From Escherichia coli (GTDB lineage: Bacteria; Pseudomonadota; Gammaproteobacteria; Enterobacterales; Enterobacteriaceae): a DNA stretch of 64,000 nt. The position numbers and the translations under genes are program-made. The DNA is taken from the NCBI RefSeq assembly GCF_003790525.1, contig NZ_CP033635.1; one strand, given 5' to 3'. Positions 6,521 to 53,225 of the stretch are shown here, piece after piece (position 1 is the first letter of the stretch; each line of letters starts with the position of its first letter). Under the pieces are notes generated by a model, which was not told the DNA's origin, searched no databases, and worked only from the letters and a program-made list of their open reading frames with translations.

Positions 6521-6877
6521 GAGTCAGACAACGAAGTGAACATCAGGATGATGACACTTCTGAAGGACACACCAGGATGGTGTTTCAGGGAAAGGCTTCT
6601 GGATGAAGCGAAGAGGATGACGCAGGACGCGTTAAAGGACACCTCCAGGATGGAGAATGAGAACCGGTCAGGATGATTCGGTGGGTCAGGAAGGCCAGGA
6701 ACACTTCAGGATGAAGTATCACATCGGGGTGGTGTGAGCAGGAAGCAATAGTTCAGGATGAACGATTGGTCGCAAGGCCAGAGGAAAAGTTGTCAAGGAT
6801 GAGCAGGGAGCAACAAAAGTAGCTGGAATGCTGCGAAACGAACCGGGAGCACTGTGAATACAGTGCTCCCTTTTTTT
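6521..6877 (+). ncRNA. csrB: CsrB regulatory RNA (CsrA-sequestering sRNA)
   Basis: about 360 nt with roughly 20 reiterated CAGGATG / AGGA(N) motifs on the plus strand, ending in a GC hairpin (gggagcactg...cagtgctccc) plus T7 run; non-coding (minus-strand ORFs here are spurious). Confidence 0.9.
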
Positions 6878-6922
6878 ATTCCTGCTATCCTTCGCGGCAG
6901 TTTTTCTTATTGAGGTTGCTTT

Positions 6923-7252: not shown

Positions 7253-8034
7253 TGCTGGAAATACTCTATCAGGATGAATGGCTGGTTGCGGTAAATAAAC
7301 CCTCCGGCTGGCTGGTTCACCGCAGCTGGCTGGATCGCGACGAGAAAGTAGTGGTCATGCAAACCGTGCGTGACCAGATAGGCCAGCATGTGTTTACTGC
7401 TCATCGTCTGGACCGACCCACTTCTGGTGTGTTGTTGATGGGATTATCCAGCGAGGCCGGACGGCTGCTGGCACAACAGTTTGAACAGCACCAAATCCAG
7501 AAACGTTACCATGCGATTGTGCGCGGCTGGTTGATGGAAGAAGCGGTGCTGGATTATCCACTGGTGGAAGAACTGGACAAAATCGCTGATAAATTTGCCC
7601 GCGAAGATAAAGGCCCGCAGCCAGCAGTGACGCATTATCGCGGTCTGGCGACCGTAGAAATGCCGGTAGCGACCGGACGTTACCCGACCACGCGCTACGG
7701 CCTGGTGGAACTGGAGCCGAAAACCGGACGTAAGCACCAGCTCCGTCGCCATCTTGCCCATTTGCGCCACCCGATTATTGGCGACAGCAAACATGGTGAT
7801 TTACGCCAGAATCGCAGCGGTGCTGAACATTTTGGCCTTCAGCGGTTAATGCTGCATGCCAGTCAGTTGTCATTGACGCATCCTTTTACTGGCGAGCCGC
7901 TGACTATTCACGCGGGCCTGGACGACACCTGGATGCAGGCGTTATCACAATTTGGCTGGCGGGGTCTGCTTCCTGAAAATGAAAGGGTTGAGTTCAGTGC
8001 GCCATCGGGTCAGGATGGAGAGATAAGTTCCTAA
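7252..8034 (+). CDS. truC: tRNA pseudouridine(65) synthase
   Basis: 260-aa ORF with RluA-family HRLDRPTSG catalytic motif. Confidence 0.9.
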
Positions 8035-8051
8035 TCCAGGGAGAAAACGGT

Positions 8052-8501
8052 ATGGCGGAAATTGGTATTTTTGTCGGCACTATGTACGGAAATTCGCTGT
8101 TAGTGGCGGAAGAAGCGGAAGCAATTCTGACCGCGCAGGGCCACAAAGCAACGGTATTTGAAGATCCTGAATTAAGCGACTGGCTGCCCTATCAGGATAA
8201 GTATGTTCTGGTGGTTACGTCCACGACCGGGCAGGGCGACCTTCCTGATTGCATTGTGCCGCTCTTTCAGGGAATTAAAGATACCCTGGGCTTCCAGCCG
8301 AATCTGCGTTATGGCGTGATTGCGCTCGGCGACAGTAGTTATGTGAATTTCTGCAATGGCGGCAAACAGTTCGATACCTTGTTGCAGGAACAGAGCGCTC
8401 AGCGAGTGGGAGAAATGCTGTTGATTGACGCCAGTGAGAACCCGGAACCGGAAACGGAATCAAATCCGTGGGTCGAACATTGGGGCACGCTGTTGTCCTG
8501 A
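8052..8501 (+). CDS. yqcA: flavodoxin-like protein YqcA
   Basis: 149-aa ORF with flavodoxin fold signature (TSTTGQGD). Confidence 0.85.
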
Positions 8502-8553
8502 TACGTTCAGCGAGCGGTAAATGCCGTTTTAGCAGTGCTGAATCGAATCTTTT

Positions 8554-8610
8554 CAGGCAAATGCCAGTAAAAACTGCTTCATAGCGCGGATTTTTACTGG
8601 CGTTTGCCTG
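8554..8610. repeat. long inverted repeat / hairpin (20-bp arms, 1 mismatch) downstream of yqcA
   Basis: caggcaaatgccagtaaaaa ... tttttactggcgtttgcctg; no flanking U-run on either strand. Confidence 0.5.
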
Positions 8611-8935
8611 GAGTCAAGCGATCCATTTCATACTCTTCTTTATTTCTTCGATTTAACCCTTCCTTTCTTGTTTTTGTTTTCATTTCCGTGAAGTGGATTC
8701 CACCGTCCAGGGCTAATGCCAAAATCGGGCCTCATTGAACGCATTAATGTTGTGTTGTTGCACGGTGAGCCGCTATGGCGCGCTTTTTATACTGCTATTG
8801 CCAGATATAAACACGCGCCGTATTCGGCGAACGACCTATAAAAACGGCAAAAAACACCCTACGTCACCTCTGATTTCCTGGCGATGTCGCAGTCCAGAGT
8901 GAGCGTGGCTAACGCGAATTTTCAGGAGTGCAACA

Positions 8936-10288
8936 ATGAGTTCTTTAAGTCAGGCTGCGAGCAGTGTGGAAAAACGCACGAATGCTCGTTACTGGATAGT
9001 GGTGATGTTGTTTATCGTCACATCCTTCAACTACGGCGACCGCGCTACGCTCTCTATCGCCGGTTCGGAAATGGCCAAAGATATCGGCCTTGATCCTGTG
9101 GGAATGGGCTATGTGTTCTCTGCTTTCTCATGGGCTTATGTTATCGGGCAGATCCCTGGTGGTTGGTTGCTGGATCGTTTTGGTTCAAAACGCGTCTACT
9201 TCTGGTCGATCTTTATCTGGTCGATGTTTACCTTGCTGCAAGGCTTCGTCGATATCTTTAGTGGATTCGGCATTATCGTTGCCCTGTTTACGCTGCGCTT
9301 CCTGGTCGGGCTTGCTGAAGCGCCCTCTTTCCCCGGCAACAGTCGCATTGTTGCGGCCTGGTTTCCGGCGCAGGAAAGGGGAACGGCGGTGTCGATTTTT
9401 AACTCCGCTCAATACTTCGCAACGGTGATCTTCGCGCCGATTATGGGCTGGCTGACGCATGAAGTGGGCTGGTCACACGTCTTTTTCTTTATGGGCGGTC
9501 TGGGCATTGTCATCAGCTTTATCTGGTTGAAAGTCATCCACGAGCCAAATCAACATCCGGGTGTAAATCAGAAAGAGCTGGAGTACATCGCCGCGGGTGG
9601 CGCGCTGATCAATATGGATCAGCAAAACACCAAAGTTAAAGTGCCGTTCAGCGTGAAGTGGGGGCAGATCAAACAGCTGCTCGGGTCACGGATGATGATC
9701 GGCGTTTATATCGGTCAGTACTGTATCAACGCCCTGACTTACTTCTTTATTACCTGGTTCCCGGTTTATCTGGTGCAGGCGCGTGGGATGTCGATTCTGA
9801 AAGCGGGCTTTGTGGCTTCCGTTCCGGCGGTTTGCGGTTTTATCGGCGGTGTGCTGGGTGGGATTATTTCCGACTGGCTGATGCGCCGCACGGGATCGCT
9901 GAACATTGCGCGTAAAACACCGATCGTAATGGGCATGTTGCTGTCGATGGTGATGGTGTTCTGCAACTACGTCAACGTTGAGTGGATGATCATCGGCTTT
10001 ATGGCGCTGGCCTTCTTCGGTAAGGGCATCGGGGCGCTGGGTTGGGCAGTAATGGCAGATACCGCGCCAAAAGAGATCAGCGGTCTTTCCGGTGGCCTGT
10101 TCAACATGTTCGGTAACATTTCTGGCATCGTCACGCCAATCGCAATTGGTTATATCGTTGGCACGACTGGCTCCTTTAATGGGGCGCTGATTTATGTTGG
10201 TGTTCATGCCTTAATCGCGGTACTGAGCTACCTGGTGTTGGTGGGCGATATCAAGCGTATCGAGTTGAAACCTGTTGCGGGGCAATAA
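8936..10288 (+). CDS. gudP: D-glucarate/D-galactarate MFS transporter
   Basis: 450-aa 12-TM MFS protein heading the gudPXD operon. Confidence 0.9.
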
Positions 10289-39797: not shown

Positions 39798-40043
39798 ATC
39801 GTATTCCCATTTGTAATAGACAAAAAAAAGAGAAAAGTAAGCCGCCCTTTCAGGTGGATTACTTTTCTCAGGTCTCTAGTAATTGCAATAAGAAATAACA
39901 TGGAAAGCAGTGGTGTTGTGTGAGAGTAGTCACGCTTCTGCTTTTTAAAATTATTTGACAATACGAATATCACACTGTGATTACGATCACATTAGCGCTT
40001 ATGCCCTTATGCTAAAAATTATCTCCAGTTACCAGAGATAATG

Positions 40044-40090
40044 AGAAAGGTAACTTCCCTCTCGCGGGGGAAGTTACCTTTCTTTTTTTT
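40044..40090 (+). terminator. intrinsic-terminator-like hairpin plus T8 in the ygcW leader
   Basis: 17-bp stem gagaaaggtaacttccc / gggaagttacctttctt followed by tttttttt, ending 25 nt before the ygcW ATG. Confidence 0.5.
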
Positions 40091-40114
40091 GCTTTACGGA
40101 AATTGGAGTTAACT

Positions 40115-52864: not shown

Positions 52865-53072
52865 GCGAGCAGCATTCCTGATTTTAAACGTGAACGTCGT
52901 TGGAAGAATTAACAGGTATAGAATGGCGTTGGGTGCTTGAGGCTGTCTGGCGTTAAGCATTCGCGAGGTTCCAGATGGACAAAAGCCCCAGGCGATATTT
53001 CTATCAACCTGAGGCCAGCGTTCGAACCCAAACAATTCGAATGTTAGTCTCTTCTTTGCAGGGAGGCAAGAC

Positions 53073-53225
53073 ATGCTGACAAAATATGCCCTTGTGGCAA
53101 TCATAGTGCTGTGTTTTACAGTACTGGGATTCACGCTGATGGTAGGCGACTCGTTGTGTGAGTTGAGTATCAGAGAACGTGGTATGGAGTTTAAGGCGGT
53201 TCTCGCTTACGAATCGAAGAAGTAG
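53073..53225 (+). CDS. Hok/Gef-family type I toxin (HokE-like small membrane peptide)
   Basis: 50-aa [53 protein letters not shown]; single TM helix, conserved Cys and C-terminal AYES motif; GGGAGG RBS; not in the supplied ORF track (below length cut-off). Confidence 0.8.

What the first reader, a model, noticed from the sequence alone, without database searches (positions are those of the whole stretch)
8554..8610. 20-bp-arm inverted repeat with no U-run between yqcA and gudP
The arms caggcaaatgccagtaaaaa and tttttactggcgtttgcctg (one mismatch) are separated by a 17-nt loop. It is too long and too AT-rich internally for a typical REP, and lacks a flanking T-run on either strand. It could be a protein-binding site or RNA structure in the long gudP leader (8611-8935).
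Basis: seen in the sequence. Interest (0 to 1): 0.3.

Follow-up and report, generated by a model that had tools for sequence, protein, structure and literature searches.

The report
Hairpin ending yqcA, upstream of gudP
The inverted repeat is real and present in virtually all E. coli, and it is most likely the hairpin that ends the yqcA transcript, a decayed terminator whose arms reuse a conserved DNA box of the neighbouring glucarate (gudP) promoter; this makes it an ordinary boundary element, not a new kind of system.

Summary
It extends to a 27-bp stem at 8551-8613. It is the longest near-perfect inverted repeat in the window and is not a chance match. It is single-copy and present in 5425 of 5426 complete E. 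coli genomes.

It is not a REP element, does not match any Rfam family, and is not in the gudP leader. A conserved -10 at 8788-8793 puts the gudP start near 8800, about 190 bp downstream of the hairpin.

"No U-run" is only half true, because A5 and T5 runs lie inside the arms. In Citrobacter the homologous core scores as a two-way intrinsic terminator followed by a further TTTT. In Escherichia that GC core has decayed and the outer TTTT has become TTTG, which lengthens the stem.

The 5' arm also carries a conserved DNA box. The box resembles the main upstream element of gudP, recurs at the garP and cdaR promoters, and keeps a fixed spacing that changes only by about 10 bp.

Best reading: a terminator-derived RNA hairpin at the yqcA/gudP boundary, superimposed on a putative CdaR site. 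No transcript or binding data confirm this. Interest is low to moderate.

The parts
8052..8501 (+). yqcA (flavodoxin) coding sequence, the last gene of the yqcC-truC-yqcA run. The stop codon ends 52 nt before the 5' arm.
   Evidence: ORF list; RefSeq annotation of the K-12 and SMS-3-5 matches.
8538..8545 (+). Box A core CTGAATCG. In other genera it is ACTGAATCG(A/T)GTTAGC. It is a conserved block just 5' of the hairpin and its role is unknown.
   Evidence: Conserved in about 20 of 25 aligned species.
8551..8613 (+). Full hairpin as + strand RNA: 23 outer pairs, bulged A8590, 4 inner pairs and an 8-nt loop. Equivalent to K-12 2922485-2922423.
   Evidence: RNAfold -40.1 kcal/mol, z = -9.2. The + strand is 4-12 kcal/mol more stable than the - strand in all six Escherichia lineages. 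K-12 is identical and colinear.
8554..8573 (+). 5' arm of the reported 20-nt inverted repeat. Includes the A5 run at 8569-8573.
8591..8610 (+). 3' arm of the reported inverted repeat. It begins with the T5 run at 8591-8595. GTTTGCC at 8602-8608 replaces the ancestral GTTTTCA U-tract.
   Evidence: Comparison with Citrobacter, Salmonella and Superficieibacter.
8574..8590 (+). The 17-nt spacer. It holds a weak inner stem CUGC/GCGG (-3.9 kcal/mol, no better than shuffles). This is the decayed counterpart of the CCTTTC/GAAAGG terminator core of Citrobacter.
   Evidence: -3.9 against -6.9 and -10.5 kcal/mol. In L008 the core is called terminator-like on both strands.
8553..8571 (+). Box B, TCAGGCAAATGCCAGTAAA: a distal copy of the conserved promoter-upstream box and a putative CdaR site. 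It overlaps the 5' arm.
   Evidence: A position weight matrix (PWM) built only from gudP proximal boxes scores it 9.8, tied for second of 127,964 window positions. It is conserved at a fixed -59 to -61 from box D in 23 of 26 species, and at -51 in Salmonella.
8593..8611 (-). A weaker inverted copy of the same box (CCAGGCAAACGCCAGTAAA on the - strand), overlapping the 3' arm. It scores in four of the six Escherichia lineages and in no other genus.
   Evidence: PWM score 7.0, rank 11 of 127,964. Scores 7.0-7.5 in the window, L004, L005 and L006, 5.2 in L003, and below 5 in L002 and in every other genus.
8614..8635 (+). Boxes D and E, TCAAGCGA-N4-TTTCATACTC. They contain a CRP-like AGCGA-N6-TCATA (TCACA in other genera). 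This is the first conserved DNA block of the gudP control region and it starts at the foot of the hairpin.
   Evidence: TCAAG.GA and TTCA.A.T are invariant in 25 species. Spacing to the downstream TCCGTGAA box is 71-72 bp in 31 of 34 species and 61 bp in 2. The CRP assignment is inferred only.
8610..8687 (+). Pyrimidine-rich, G-poor tract. It is a possible Rho loading region for transcripts that pass the hairpin.
   Evidence: C/G ratio 2.38, above the 99th percentile of 78-nt windows in this window; 74% pyrimidine. No Rho-dependent region is listed here in Adams et al. 2021.
8685..8705 (+). Conserved box TCCGTGAA-N6-TTCCAC of the gudP upstream region.
   Evidence: Aligned in 70 species at rigid spacing.
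8708..8726 (+). Box P, CAGGGCTAATGCCAAAATC (consensus TTGGGCTTATGCCATAAAC): the proximal conserved box and a putative CdaR site.
   Evidence: Present in 70 of 70 aligned loci. The same PWM finds a box at the identical distance from TTGCAC and the -10 in the garP promoter, and one in the cdaR upstream region.
8758..8793 (+). Core gudP promoter: TTGCACGGTGAG, then 24 nt after TTGCAC, the -10 TATACT (8788-8793). The inferred start is near 8800, about 135 nt before the gudP ATG at 8936.
   Evidence: Conservation across genera. The scanner calls GTGAGA-17-TATACT in L008 and L009. garP and cdaR share the same TTGCAC-24 nt-TAT(A/G)CT layout. The start site itself is inferred, not mapped here.

Best explanation
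The repeat is the Escherichia version of a conserved boundary module between the yqcC-truC-yqcA transcription unit and the gudPXD control region.

Transcribed on the + strand from yqcA, it folds into a 27-bp hairpin that marks the 3' end of that transcript. It descends from a two-way intrinsic terminator (A-tract, GC stem, T-tract) that is still intact in Citrobacter.

In Escherichia three things changed:
- The GC core decayed.
- The external U-tract (TTTTCA) mutated to TTTGCC, which lengthened the stem.
- An upstream 3' UTR hairpin was lost.

The most likely way it works now is as follows. RNA polymerase is at best weakly released at the internal T5 or at GUUUG. Transcripts that run on are released in the G-poor tract just downstream, probably by Rho. 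The long stem then blocks 3' exonucleases and keeps yqcA transcription out of the silent, activator-dependent gudP promoter.

The 5' arm is at the same time a conserved DNA box, a putative distal CdaR site, so part of the sequence is constrained at the DNA level.

Shown: the structure, its conservation, its homology to terminators, the G.U asymmetry, the motif and the spacing. Inferred: actual termination, Rho involvement, the stabilising role, and CdaR binding.
For: Position:
- The 5' arm of the reported repeat starts 53 nt after the yqcA stop (the extended stem at 8551 starts 50 nt after it). It is the only strong structure in the 434-nt spacer.
- No canonical + strand terminator is found elsewhere between the two genes.

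Homology to terminators:
- In Citrobacter MGH106 the homologous core CCTTTC-ATTT-GAAAGG plus T5 is called terminator-like on both strands.
- C. koseri, C. amalonaticus, Superficieibacter and a Raoultella sp. have GC cores followed by T4-T7.
- Core stability is -6.9 and -10.5 kcal/mol there, against -3.9 in E. coli.
- The ancestral box C, GGC(A/G)TTTTCA, supplies a second T-run after the extended stem. Escherichia has GTTTGCC instead.

RNA-level signatures:
- In ten Escherichia sequences the non-Watson-Crick positions of the stem are G.U on the + strand at 7 distinct sites, against 2 A.C sites.
- Every Escherichia lineage folds 4-12 kcal/mol better on the + strand.
- Across 25 species 70% of cells are paired, against 29-48% for slid controls. 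One pair shows A-U x7, C-G x7 and U-A x3.

Context:
- Species without this module place a plain hairpin or a REP element at the same spot, directly before box D or the promoter.
- Escherichia lacks the CCCTCCC...GGGAGGG hairpin that other genera carry just after the stop.
- The tract at 8610-8687 has a C/G ratio of 2.38, above the 99th percentile.

Conservation: 5425 of 5426 E. coli genomes carry it; 4751 are at least 99% identical over 111 nt.
Against: - No mapped RNA 3' end and no Rho-dependent region is listed for yqcA or gudP in the Term-seq tables of Adams et al. 2021. yqcA may simply be too weakly expressed.
- The E. coli form fails the usual terminator criteria.
- The hairpin is weak or absent in several genera (Phytobacter, Kosakonia, Silvania) that still conserve box B. 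The most deeply conserved feature is therefore the DNA box, not the stem.
- The spacer length between box B and box D is fixed, which suggests a DNA constraint.
- The G.U bias (7 against 2 sites, p about 0.09) and the covariation (5 of 500 shuffles) are modest, and the sequences are related.
Confidence: 0.45

Rival explanations
1. The repeat is purely a DNA element. The two arms are an inverted pair of operator sites for the glucarate/galactarate regulator CdaR, or another protein of that regulon. The pair lies about 200-240 bp upstream of the gudP start and works with the proximal box, for example through a protein-held DNA loop. On this view the RNA hairpin is a by-product of two copies of a palindromic site.
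For: - A position weight matrix built only from the proximal gudP box of 70 species scores the 5' arm 9.8 (tied for second of 127,964 positions) and the 3' arm 7.0 (rank 11).
- The same matrix finds a box in the garP promoter at exactly the same distances (31 nt to TTGCAC, a further 24 nt to TATACT), scoring 11.3. It also finds one 50-70 nt upstream of the cdaR start, scoring 12.1. Background frequency is about 4e-5 per position.
- CdaR activates gudP and its own gene (PMC7544201).
- Box B is kept in species where no outer stem forms.
- Box B to box D spacing is 59-61 bp in 23 of 26 species, and 10 bp shorter in Salmonella.
- Box D to the promoter spacing is fixed within 1 bp in 31 of 34 species, although the spacer is only 36% identical. 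In two species it is 10-11 bp shorter, one helical turn.
Against: - No binding data are available. The CdaR motif was still unpublished in 2011, and I found none later.
- The inverted copy scores as a site only in Escherichia, and there in four of six lineages (7.0-7.5 in the window, L004, L005 and L006; 5.2 in L003; below 5 in L002).
- The arms are complementary at positions the matrix does not care about.
- The G.U bias on the + strand and the A-U / C-G / U-A covariation are not expected for protein sites.
- A GC stem plus T-run between two operator sites has no DNA-level rationale.
- The module is absent from more than half of the species that keep the core promoter, so it is dispensable for CdaR control.
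Confidence: 0.3
2. The repeat is an RNase III retro-regulator like lambda sib/tI. Transcripts that stop at the internal T5 carry only a short hairpin. Transcripts that read through complete the 27-bp double-stranded stem, are cut by RNase III and decay. This uncouples yqcA from gudP.
For: - The stem is 23 + 4 bp of nearly continuous duplex, which is long enough for E. coli RNase III (own knowledge).
- The layout, with the T-run inside the 3' arm, matches the sib logic.
- Gordon et al. 2017 (PMC5371410), Table S1, list position 2922422, "intergenic gudP-yqcA", with 48 reads in the rnc deletion against 0 and 1 in wild type. That position is window 8614, the first base past the stem.
Against: - The same table lists many silent genes at 17-65 reads against 0-2, including gudP, gudX, garP, garL, garD, cdaR, lacZ and uhpT. 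The entry therefore looks like uniform background in the mutant library.
- It was not among the sites tested in vitro.
- The inner terminator is very weak (-3.9 kcal/mol), so there may be no terminated class of transcripts to spare from cleavage.
Confidence: 0.1
3. The hairpin is the terminator of a small regulatory RNA. The RNA would either be processed from the yqcA 3' UTR or transcribed on its own, with the conserved box A (CUGAAUCG...) as its seed.
For: - Box A and further blocks upstream of the hairpin are conserved across genera. The arrangement, a conserved single-stranded block followed by a terminator, is the usual anatomy of 3' UTR-derived small RNAs.
- -10-like hexamers (TATAAA, TATTAT, CATTAT) lie 2-10 nt before box A in some species.
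Against: - No Rfam family matches in E. coli, Salmonella, Citrobacter, Phytobacter, Superficieibacter or Raoultella.
- No promoter is conserved in position.
- E. coli has lost the U-tract that Hfq-type small RNAs need.
- Nothing is annotated here in K-12.
- No paper mentions a yqcA-linked RNA.
Confidence: 0.07
4. This is the first reader's alternative: an RNA structure inside a long gudP 5' leader, such as an attenuator, riboswitch or processing site, that controls gudP expression in cis.
For: The hairpin is upstream of gudP on the same strand. Any transcript that reads through from yqcA would carry it ahead of gudP.
Against: - The conserved activator-type promoter (-10 at 8788-8793, with a layout shared with garP and cdaR) lies about 180 bp downstream of the hairpin.
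- More than half of the species with the same promoter lack the module.
- There is no Rfam hit.
Confidence: 0.03
5. The repeat is a relic of a REP/BIME, ERIC or other mobile repeat, or a chance palindrome without function.
For: It is extragenic and palindromic. REP elements occupy the equivalent site in Enterobacter and in the Citrobacter freundii group.
Against: - There is exactly one copy per genome.
- It has no similarity to the GC-rich REP consensus.
- None of 20 simulations gave a repeat of comparable length.
- It is conserved in position across genera.
Confidence: 0.02

Closest known systems
Bidirectional intrinsic (Rho-independent) terminators: A-tract, GC hairpin, U-tract
   Same: - The element has an A5 run, a stem-loop and a T5 run in that order.
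- Its Citrobacter homologue is called as a terminator on both strands.
- It sits directly after a stop codon.
   Different: - In E. coli the GC core is only 4 pairs with an 8-nt loop (-3.9 kcal/mol).
- The runs are buried in a 23-bp outer helix.
- No U-tract follows the full stem.
- The flanking genes are in tandem, not convergent.
Phage lambda sib/tI retro-regulator (own knowledge)
   Same: A terminator is nested in a longer inverted repeat, so only read-through RNA can form a full-length duplex long enough for RNase III.
   Different: - No validated RNase III cut exists here; the only entry is in a low-specificity list.
- The inner terminator is weak.
- No anti-termination system is known to act on yqcA.
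Protective 3' stem-loops left after Rho-dependent termination and exonuclease trimming (concept of Dar and Sorek 2018, PMC6061677; own knowledge of its content)
   Same: A stable hairpin without a U-tract is followed by a G-poor, pyrimidine-rich tract.
   Different: No Rho-dependent 3' end is listed at this locus in the data I could read.
REP/BIME extragenic palindromes
   Same: It is an extragenic hairpin at the 3' end of an operon. REPs fill this very position in Enterobacter and some Citrobacter.
   Different: It is single-copy, AT-rich and twice as long, with no REP consensus.
Distal operator or upstream activating sites phased with a proximal site (ara O2-I1, gal OE-OI, lac O1-O3; own knowledge)
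   Same: - A second copy of the promoter-proximal box lies about 155 bp upstream.
- The intervening DNA is free to change in sequence but not in length.
- The only length changes seen are about 10 bp.
   Different: - The protein is not identified and no looping has been shown.
- The distal site is missing in many species that keep the promoter.

Membership tests
Intrinsic (Rho-independent) terminator | GC-rich stem of about 5-14 bp with a 3-8 nt loop | tested here: not met
   The scanner finds no + strand site in 8000-9100. The inner stem is 4 bp with an 8-nt loop, -3.9 kcal/mol, and 18 of 200 shuffles are as stable. The outer helix is AT-rich.
Intrinsic (Rho-independent) terminator | U-tract (at least 4-5 U) starting 0-2 nt after the stem | tested here: inconclusive
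   T5 follows the weak inner stem after one bulged A. After the 15-bp GCCAGU...ACUGGC stem comes only GUUUG, and after the full stem comes GAGUCAAG. Homologues in Citrobacter meet the criterion.
Intrinsic (Rho-independent) terminator | A mapped RNA 3' end at the U-tract | tested here: inconclusive
   No yqcA or gudP entry, and no coordinate beginning 29224, appears in the Term-seq supplements of Adams et al. 2021. Other data sets were not held.
REP/BIME or ERIC repeat families | Many dispersed copies per genome | tested here: not met
   One place per genome by megablast. Two by blastn, which is the palindrome matching itself on both strands.
REP/BIME or ERIC repeat families | GC-rich consensus palindrome | tested here: not met
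   The arms are 40% G+C with A5/T5 runs. The real REP elements at the same site in other genera look entirely different.
RNase III substrate | About 20 bp or more of near-continuous double-stranded RNA | tested here: met
   23 + 4 pairs with one bulge.
RNase III substrate | rnc-dependent change in RNA at the site in vivo, or cleavage in vitro | tested here: inconclusive
   Position 2922422 (window 8614) is in Table S1 of Gordon et al. 2017. However, that list contains many silent genes at similar read counts.
Operator/activator site of the CdaR regulon (putative motif defined here) | Match to the conserved promoter-proximal box | tested here: met
   PWM scores 9.8 (5' arm) and 7.0 (3' arm, reverse), ranks 2-3 and 11 of 127,964.
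Operator/activator site of the CdaR regulon (putative motif defined here) | The same motif at other promoters controlled by the regulator | tested here: met
   garP promoter 11.3 at identical spacing; cdaR upstream 12.1. The expected number of chance hits is about 0.01-0.03 per region.
Operator/activator site of the CdaR regulon (putative motif defined here) | Conserved position and helical phasing relative to the promoter | tested here: met
   Fixed spacing in 23 of 26 and in 31 of 34 species; the exceptions differ by 10-11 bp.
Operator/activator site of the CdaR regulon (putative motif defined here) | Direct binding of the protein | not testable with these tools
   No footprint or ChIP data were found. 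The SdaR/CdaR motif was reported as unknown in E. coli in 2011.
Known RNA family (small RNA, riboswitch, leader) | Match to a curated covariance model | tested here: not met
   Only a mir-653 chance hit, E = 0.34. Nothing in five other genera or at gathering score in the whole window.
gudP 5' leader element | Location downstream of the gudP transcription start | tested here: not met
   The conserved -10 at 8788-8793 places the start near 8800. The start is inferred, since the original mapping paper was not held.

The most novel reading that the evidence does not exclude
The repeat may be the distal end of a previously undescribed, helically phased control region of gudPXD. In this reading, two inverted copies of the (so far unpublished) CdaR recognition box, core GGCA-AA/TT-TGCC, flank a relic terminator and cooperate with the proximal box about 155 bp away and with a CRP-like site between them. 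The same 60 bp would then be read twice: as DNA by the regulator, and as RNA to end or process the upstream transcript, possibly with RNase III acting as at lambda sib.
Probability: 0.25. Interest if true: 0.45.

Novelty: new member of a known kind. Interest (0 to 1): 0.3.

Why it matters
The hairpin on its own is a routine operon-boundary structure.

Its value is as a worked example of how an intrinsic terminator can decay and be rebuilt into a long stem without a U-tract. This explains a class of "terminator-less" hairpins that prediction programs miss.

The by-product may be more useful. The analysis yields a candidate recognition box for CdaR, shared by the gudP, garP and cdaR promoters at identical spacing. 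It also yields a length-constrained upstream architecture for gudP. Glucarate and galactarate use matters for E. coli and Salmonella growth in the inflamed or antibiotic-treated gut, and CdaR/PgudP is used as a glucarate biosensor. A defined operator would therefore be of practical use.

Tried and rejected
- Rfam, permissive and at gathering thresholds, on the locus, on five other genera and on the whole window. Nothing was found at the site.
- REP or repeat-family membership. Rejected, because the element is single-copy.
- Literature search for yqcA together with gudP, and for yqcA alone. Nothing on RNA or regulation at this spacer.
- Term-seq and Rho tables of Adams et al. 2021. No entry.
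- Supplements of Dar and Sorek 2018, Conway 2014, Altuvia 2018, Grunberger 2022, Herzel 2022 and the Footprint-seq preprint were not held. Thomason 2015, Ju 2019 and Monterrubio 2000 were not held at all.
- RNase III list of Gordon et al. 2017. It has a hit at the foot of the stem, but I judged it weak after seeing many silent genes at similar coverage.
- Plain BLAST of the gudP spacer against the garP-garD spacer. It gave only short matches. The shared layout emerged only with the position weight matrix and by hand.
- A - strand promoter, TTGACT-16-AAAAAT, at 8617-8590. It is not conserved in other genera and fires into the loop, so I rejected it.
- A small ORF across the fixed-length spacer. 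Rejected, because the spacing varies by 1 nt between species, which would shift the frame.
- A conserved promoter for a small RNA ahead of box A. None has a consistent position.
- The biosensor papers. They gave no promoter or operator detail in the text that was held.

Full report
**Observation.** The window is E. coli SMS-3-5 (100% match). yqcA ends at 8501 and gudP starts at 8936. The repeat is exactly as described. The arms are CAGGCAAATGCCAGTAAAAA (8554-8573) and TTTTTACTGGCGTTTGCCTG (8591-8610), with 17 nt between them. The one mismatch is T8562 opposite G8602. As + strand RNA that mismatch is a G.U wobble.

Pairing extends to 8551-8613: 23 outer pairs, bulged A8590, a 4-bp inner stem and an 8-nt loop. 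Free energy is -45.9 kcal/mol with flanks (z = -7) and -40.1 kcal/mol for the 63 nt alone (z = -9.2). The - strand folds less well, at -38.3 kcal/mol. It is the longest near-perfect inverted repeat in the 64 kb, and 20 Markov simulations produced none with arms of 16 nt or more.

**Distribution in E. coli.** The element is single-copy. Megablast finds one place per genome. blastn finds two, which is the palindrome matching itself on both strands. It is present in 5425 of 5426 complete E. coli genomes, and 4751 are at least 99% identical over 111 nt. K-12 is identical and colinear; the hairpin corresponds to K-12 2922485-2922423. Nothing is annotated there and no Rfam family matches. REP and ERIC membership is therefore excluded.

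**It is not in the gudP leader.** I aligned the proximal 270 nt from 20 species. The alignment shows an invariant -10 TATACT (8788-8793), TTGCAC(G/A)(G/A)TGAG 24 nt upstream of it, and further fixed boxes. The scanner calls GTGAGA-17-TATACT in two Citrobacter loci. The garP and cdaR promoters of K-12 have the same TTGCAC, 24 nt, TAT(A/G)CT layout. The gudP start is therefore inferred near 8800, giving a leader of about 135 nt. The hairpin sits about 190-250 bp upstream of it, in the 3' untranslated region of yqcA. The original start-site paper could not be read, so this rests on conservation.

**Comparative anatomy.** YqcA neighbourhoods from 80 species keep yqcA next to gudP in most cases. 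In 26 species from about 12 genera the spacer carries a common module. In order, it consists of:
- box A, ACTGAATCG.GTTAGC;
- box B, GGCAAATGCC.GTAAAA;
- a variable inner stem-loop;
- box C, TTTTTAC.GGC(A/G)TTTTCA;
- boxes D and E, TCAAGCGA-N4-TTTCACAC.

The other species have a REP element or a plain hairpin at the same place.

In Citrobacter MGH106 the inner part, CCTTTC-ATTT-GAAAGG plus T5, is called terminator-like on both strands. C. koseri, C. amalonaticus, Superficieibacter and a Raoultella sp. are similar. Box C supplies a second TTTT right after the extended stem.

Escherichia differs in three ways:
- The GC core is weak, -3.9 kcal/mol against -6.9 and -10.5.
- TTTTCA has become TTTGCC, which pairs with GGCAAA and lengthens the stem to 23 outer pairs.
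- About 45 nt carrying a CCCTCCC...GGGAGGG hairpin and another conserved block just after the stop codon are missing.

So "no U-run" is half true. One run is buried in the 3' arm, and the ancestral external one was turned into stem.

**Evidence for an RNA-level role.**
- Across ten Escherichia sequences, including population variants fetched from complete genomes, the non-Watson-Crick positions of the stem are G.U on the + strand at seven distinct sites and A.C at two.
- Every lineage folds 4-12 kcal/mol better on the + strand.
- On the 25-species alignment 70% of cells pair, against 29-48% for slid controls. The covariation score is reached by 5 of 500 shuffles. One pair shows A-U x7, C-G x7 and U-A x3.
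- Directly after the stem lies a G-poor tract with a C/G ratio of 2.38, above the window's 99th percentile. This is compatible with Rho loading.

These signals are consistent but modest, and the sequences are related.

**Evidence for a DNA-level role.** I built a position weight matrix (PWM) from the most conserved upstream box of gudP (8708-8726, consensus TTGGGCTTATGCCATAAAC, 70 species).
- It scores the 5' arm 9.8, tied for second among 127,964 window positions, and the reverse of the 3' arm 7.0, rank 11.
- It finds a box in the garP promoter at exactly the same distances from TTGCAC and the -10 (11.3), and a box just upstream of cdaR (12.1). About 0.01-0.03 chance hits are expected per region.
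- CdaR activates gudP and its own gene (PMC7544201). Its motif was unpublished in 2011.
- Box B is kept, with scores of 8-17, even in genera where no outer stem forms.
- Box B to box D spacing is 59-61 bp in 23 of 26 species, and 10 bp less in Salmonella.
- Box D to the TCCGTGAA box is 71-72 bp in 31 of 34 species, although that spacer is only 36% identical. In two species it is 61 bp.

Length held constant while sequence drifts, with exceptions of one helical turn, is the signature of phased protein sites.

Boxes D and E contain AGCGA-N6-TCA(C/T)A, which is CRP-like. A verified high-affinity CRP site sits at the analogous place upstream of the garP box (PMC12871828). No CRP data for gudP could be read.

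**Experimental traces.** The Term-seq and Rho tables of Adams et al. 2021 have no entry here. Gordon et al. 2017 list 2922422, which is window 8614, the first base past the stem. It has 48 reads in an rnc deletion against 0 and 1 in wild type. The same list contains many silent genes at similar counts, including gudP, gudX, garP, garL, garD and cdaR. I therefore treat it as weak evidence.

**Verdict.** The repeat is a composite boundary element. My best reading (0.45) is that the inverted symmetry exists because the + strand RNA hairpin ends and insulates the yqcA transcript. On this reading it is a decayed two-way intrinsic terminator rebuilt as a long stem, with release probably completed by Rho downstream, and its 5' arm doubles as a conserved DNA box.

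The rivals are:
- a purely DNA operator pair for CdaR (0.30);
- a sib-like RNase III retro-regulator (0.10);
- a small-RNA terminator (0.07);
- a gudP leader element (0.03);
- a repeat relic or chance (0.02).

The element is a new, unannotated member of a known kind, and interest is low to moderate. The candidate CdaR box and the phased gudP upstream architecture are the parts most worth a bench test.

Noticed in passing
window 39977-40091: A perfect CRP-type palindrome, TGTGATTACGATCACA (39977-39992), matches a 1.7 nM CRP site listed for ygcW/yqcE in PMC12871828. About 50 nt later comes an 18-bp perfect hairpin (40044-40083) followed by T8, a textbook terminator. A 23-codon ORF runs through the hairpin. 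There is no Rfam family. This may be a CRP-driven small transcript or a leader.
   Followed up: partly
L007, L008, L020-L024, L046-L053, L057, L064, L072: first ~90 nt after the yqcA stop: Non-Escherichia genera share a hairpin, CCCTCCCCCTAC(C)GGGAGGG, right after the stop, mostly without a T-run. It is followed by the conserved block TGCCAGTAAGCAAAATAACGACC and then box A, ACTGAATCG(A/T)GTTAGC. The function of these 3' UTR blocks is unknown. Escherichia lacks the first two.
   Followed up: partly
window 8614-8793 and the same region of 34 loci: The gudP upstream region is length-invariant (within 1 bp) over about 175 bp in some 30 species, although the 44-nt spacer is only 36% identical. The only exceptions are 10-11 bp deletions. 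gudP, garP and cdaR share a box, 31 nt, TTGCAC, 24 nt, -10 layout (cdaR lacks the separate upstream box). This gives a candidate CdaR operator, core GGCA(A/T)(A/T)TGC(C/A).
   Followed up: partly
L090 (E. coli 2014C-4135), equivalent to window 8620/8621: An IS66-family element (ISEc23) is inserted 7 nt past the foot of the hairpin. It separates the hairpin from the gudP control region.
   Followed up: yes
K-12 gud, gar and cdaR loci, in Table S1 of Gordon et al. 2017: gudP, gudX (twice), garP, garL, garD, the garP-garD spacer and cdaR all appear with 17-65 reads in the rnc deletion against 0-2 in wild type. Either the mutant library has uniform background, or the whole CdaR regulon is up without RNase III.
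   Followed up: no
window 6521-6880 and 52931-53088: CsrB small RNA lies just upstream of yqcC (383 bits). A sok antitoxin RNA (111 bits) lies elsewhere in the window.
   Followed up: no
L016 (Escherichia albertii): yqcA is followed by a different hairpin (GCCCTCTGATAATCAGAGGGC), and gudP is not found within 2.5 kb. The module is absent in this Escherichia species.
   Followed up: no
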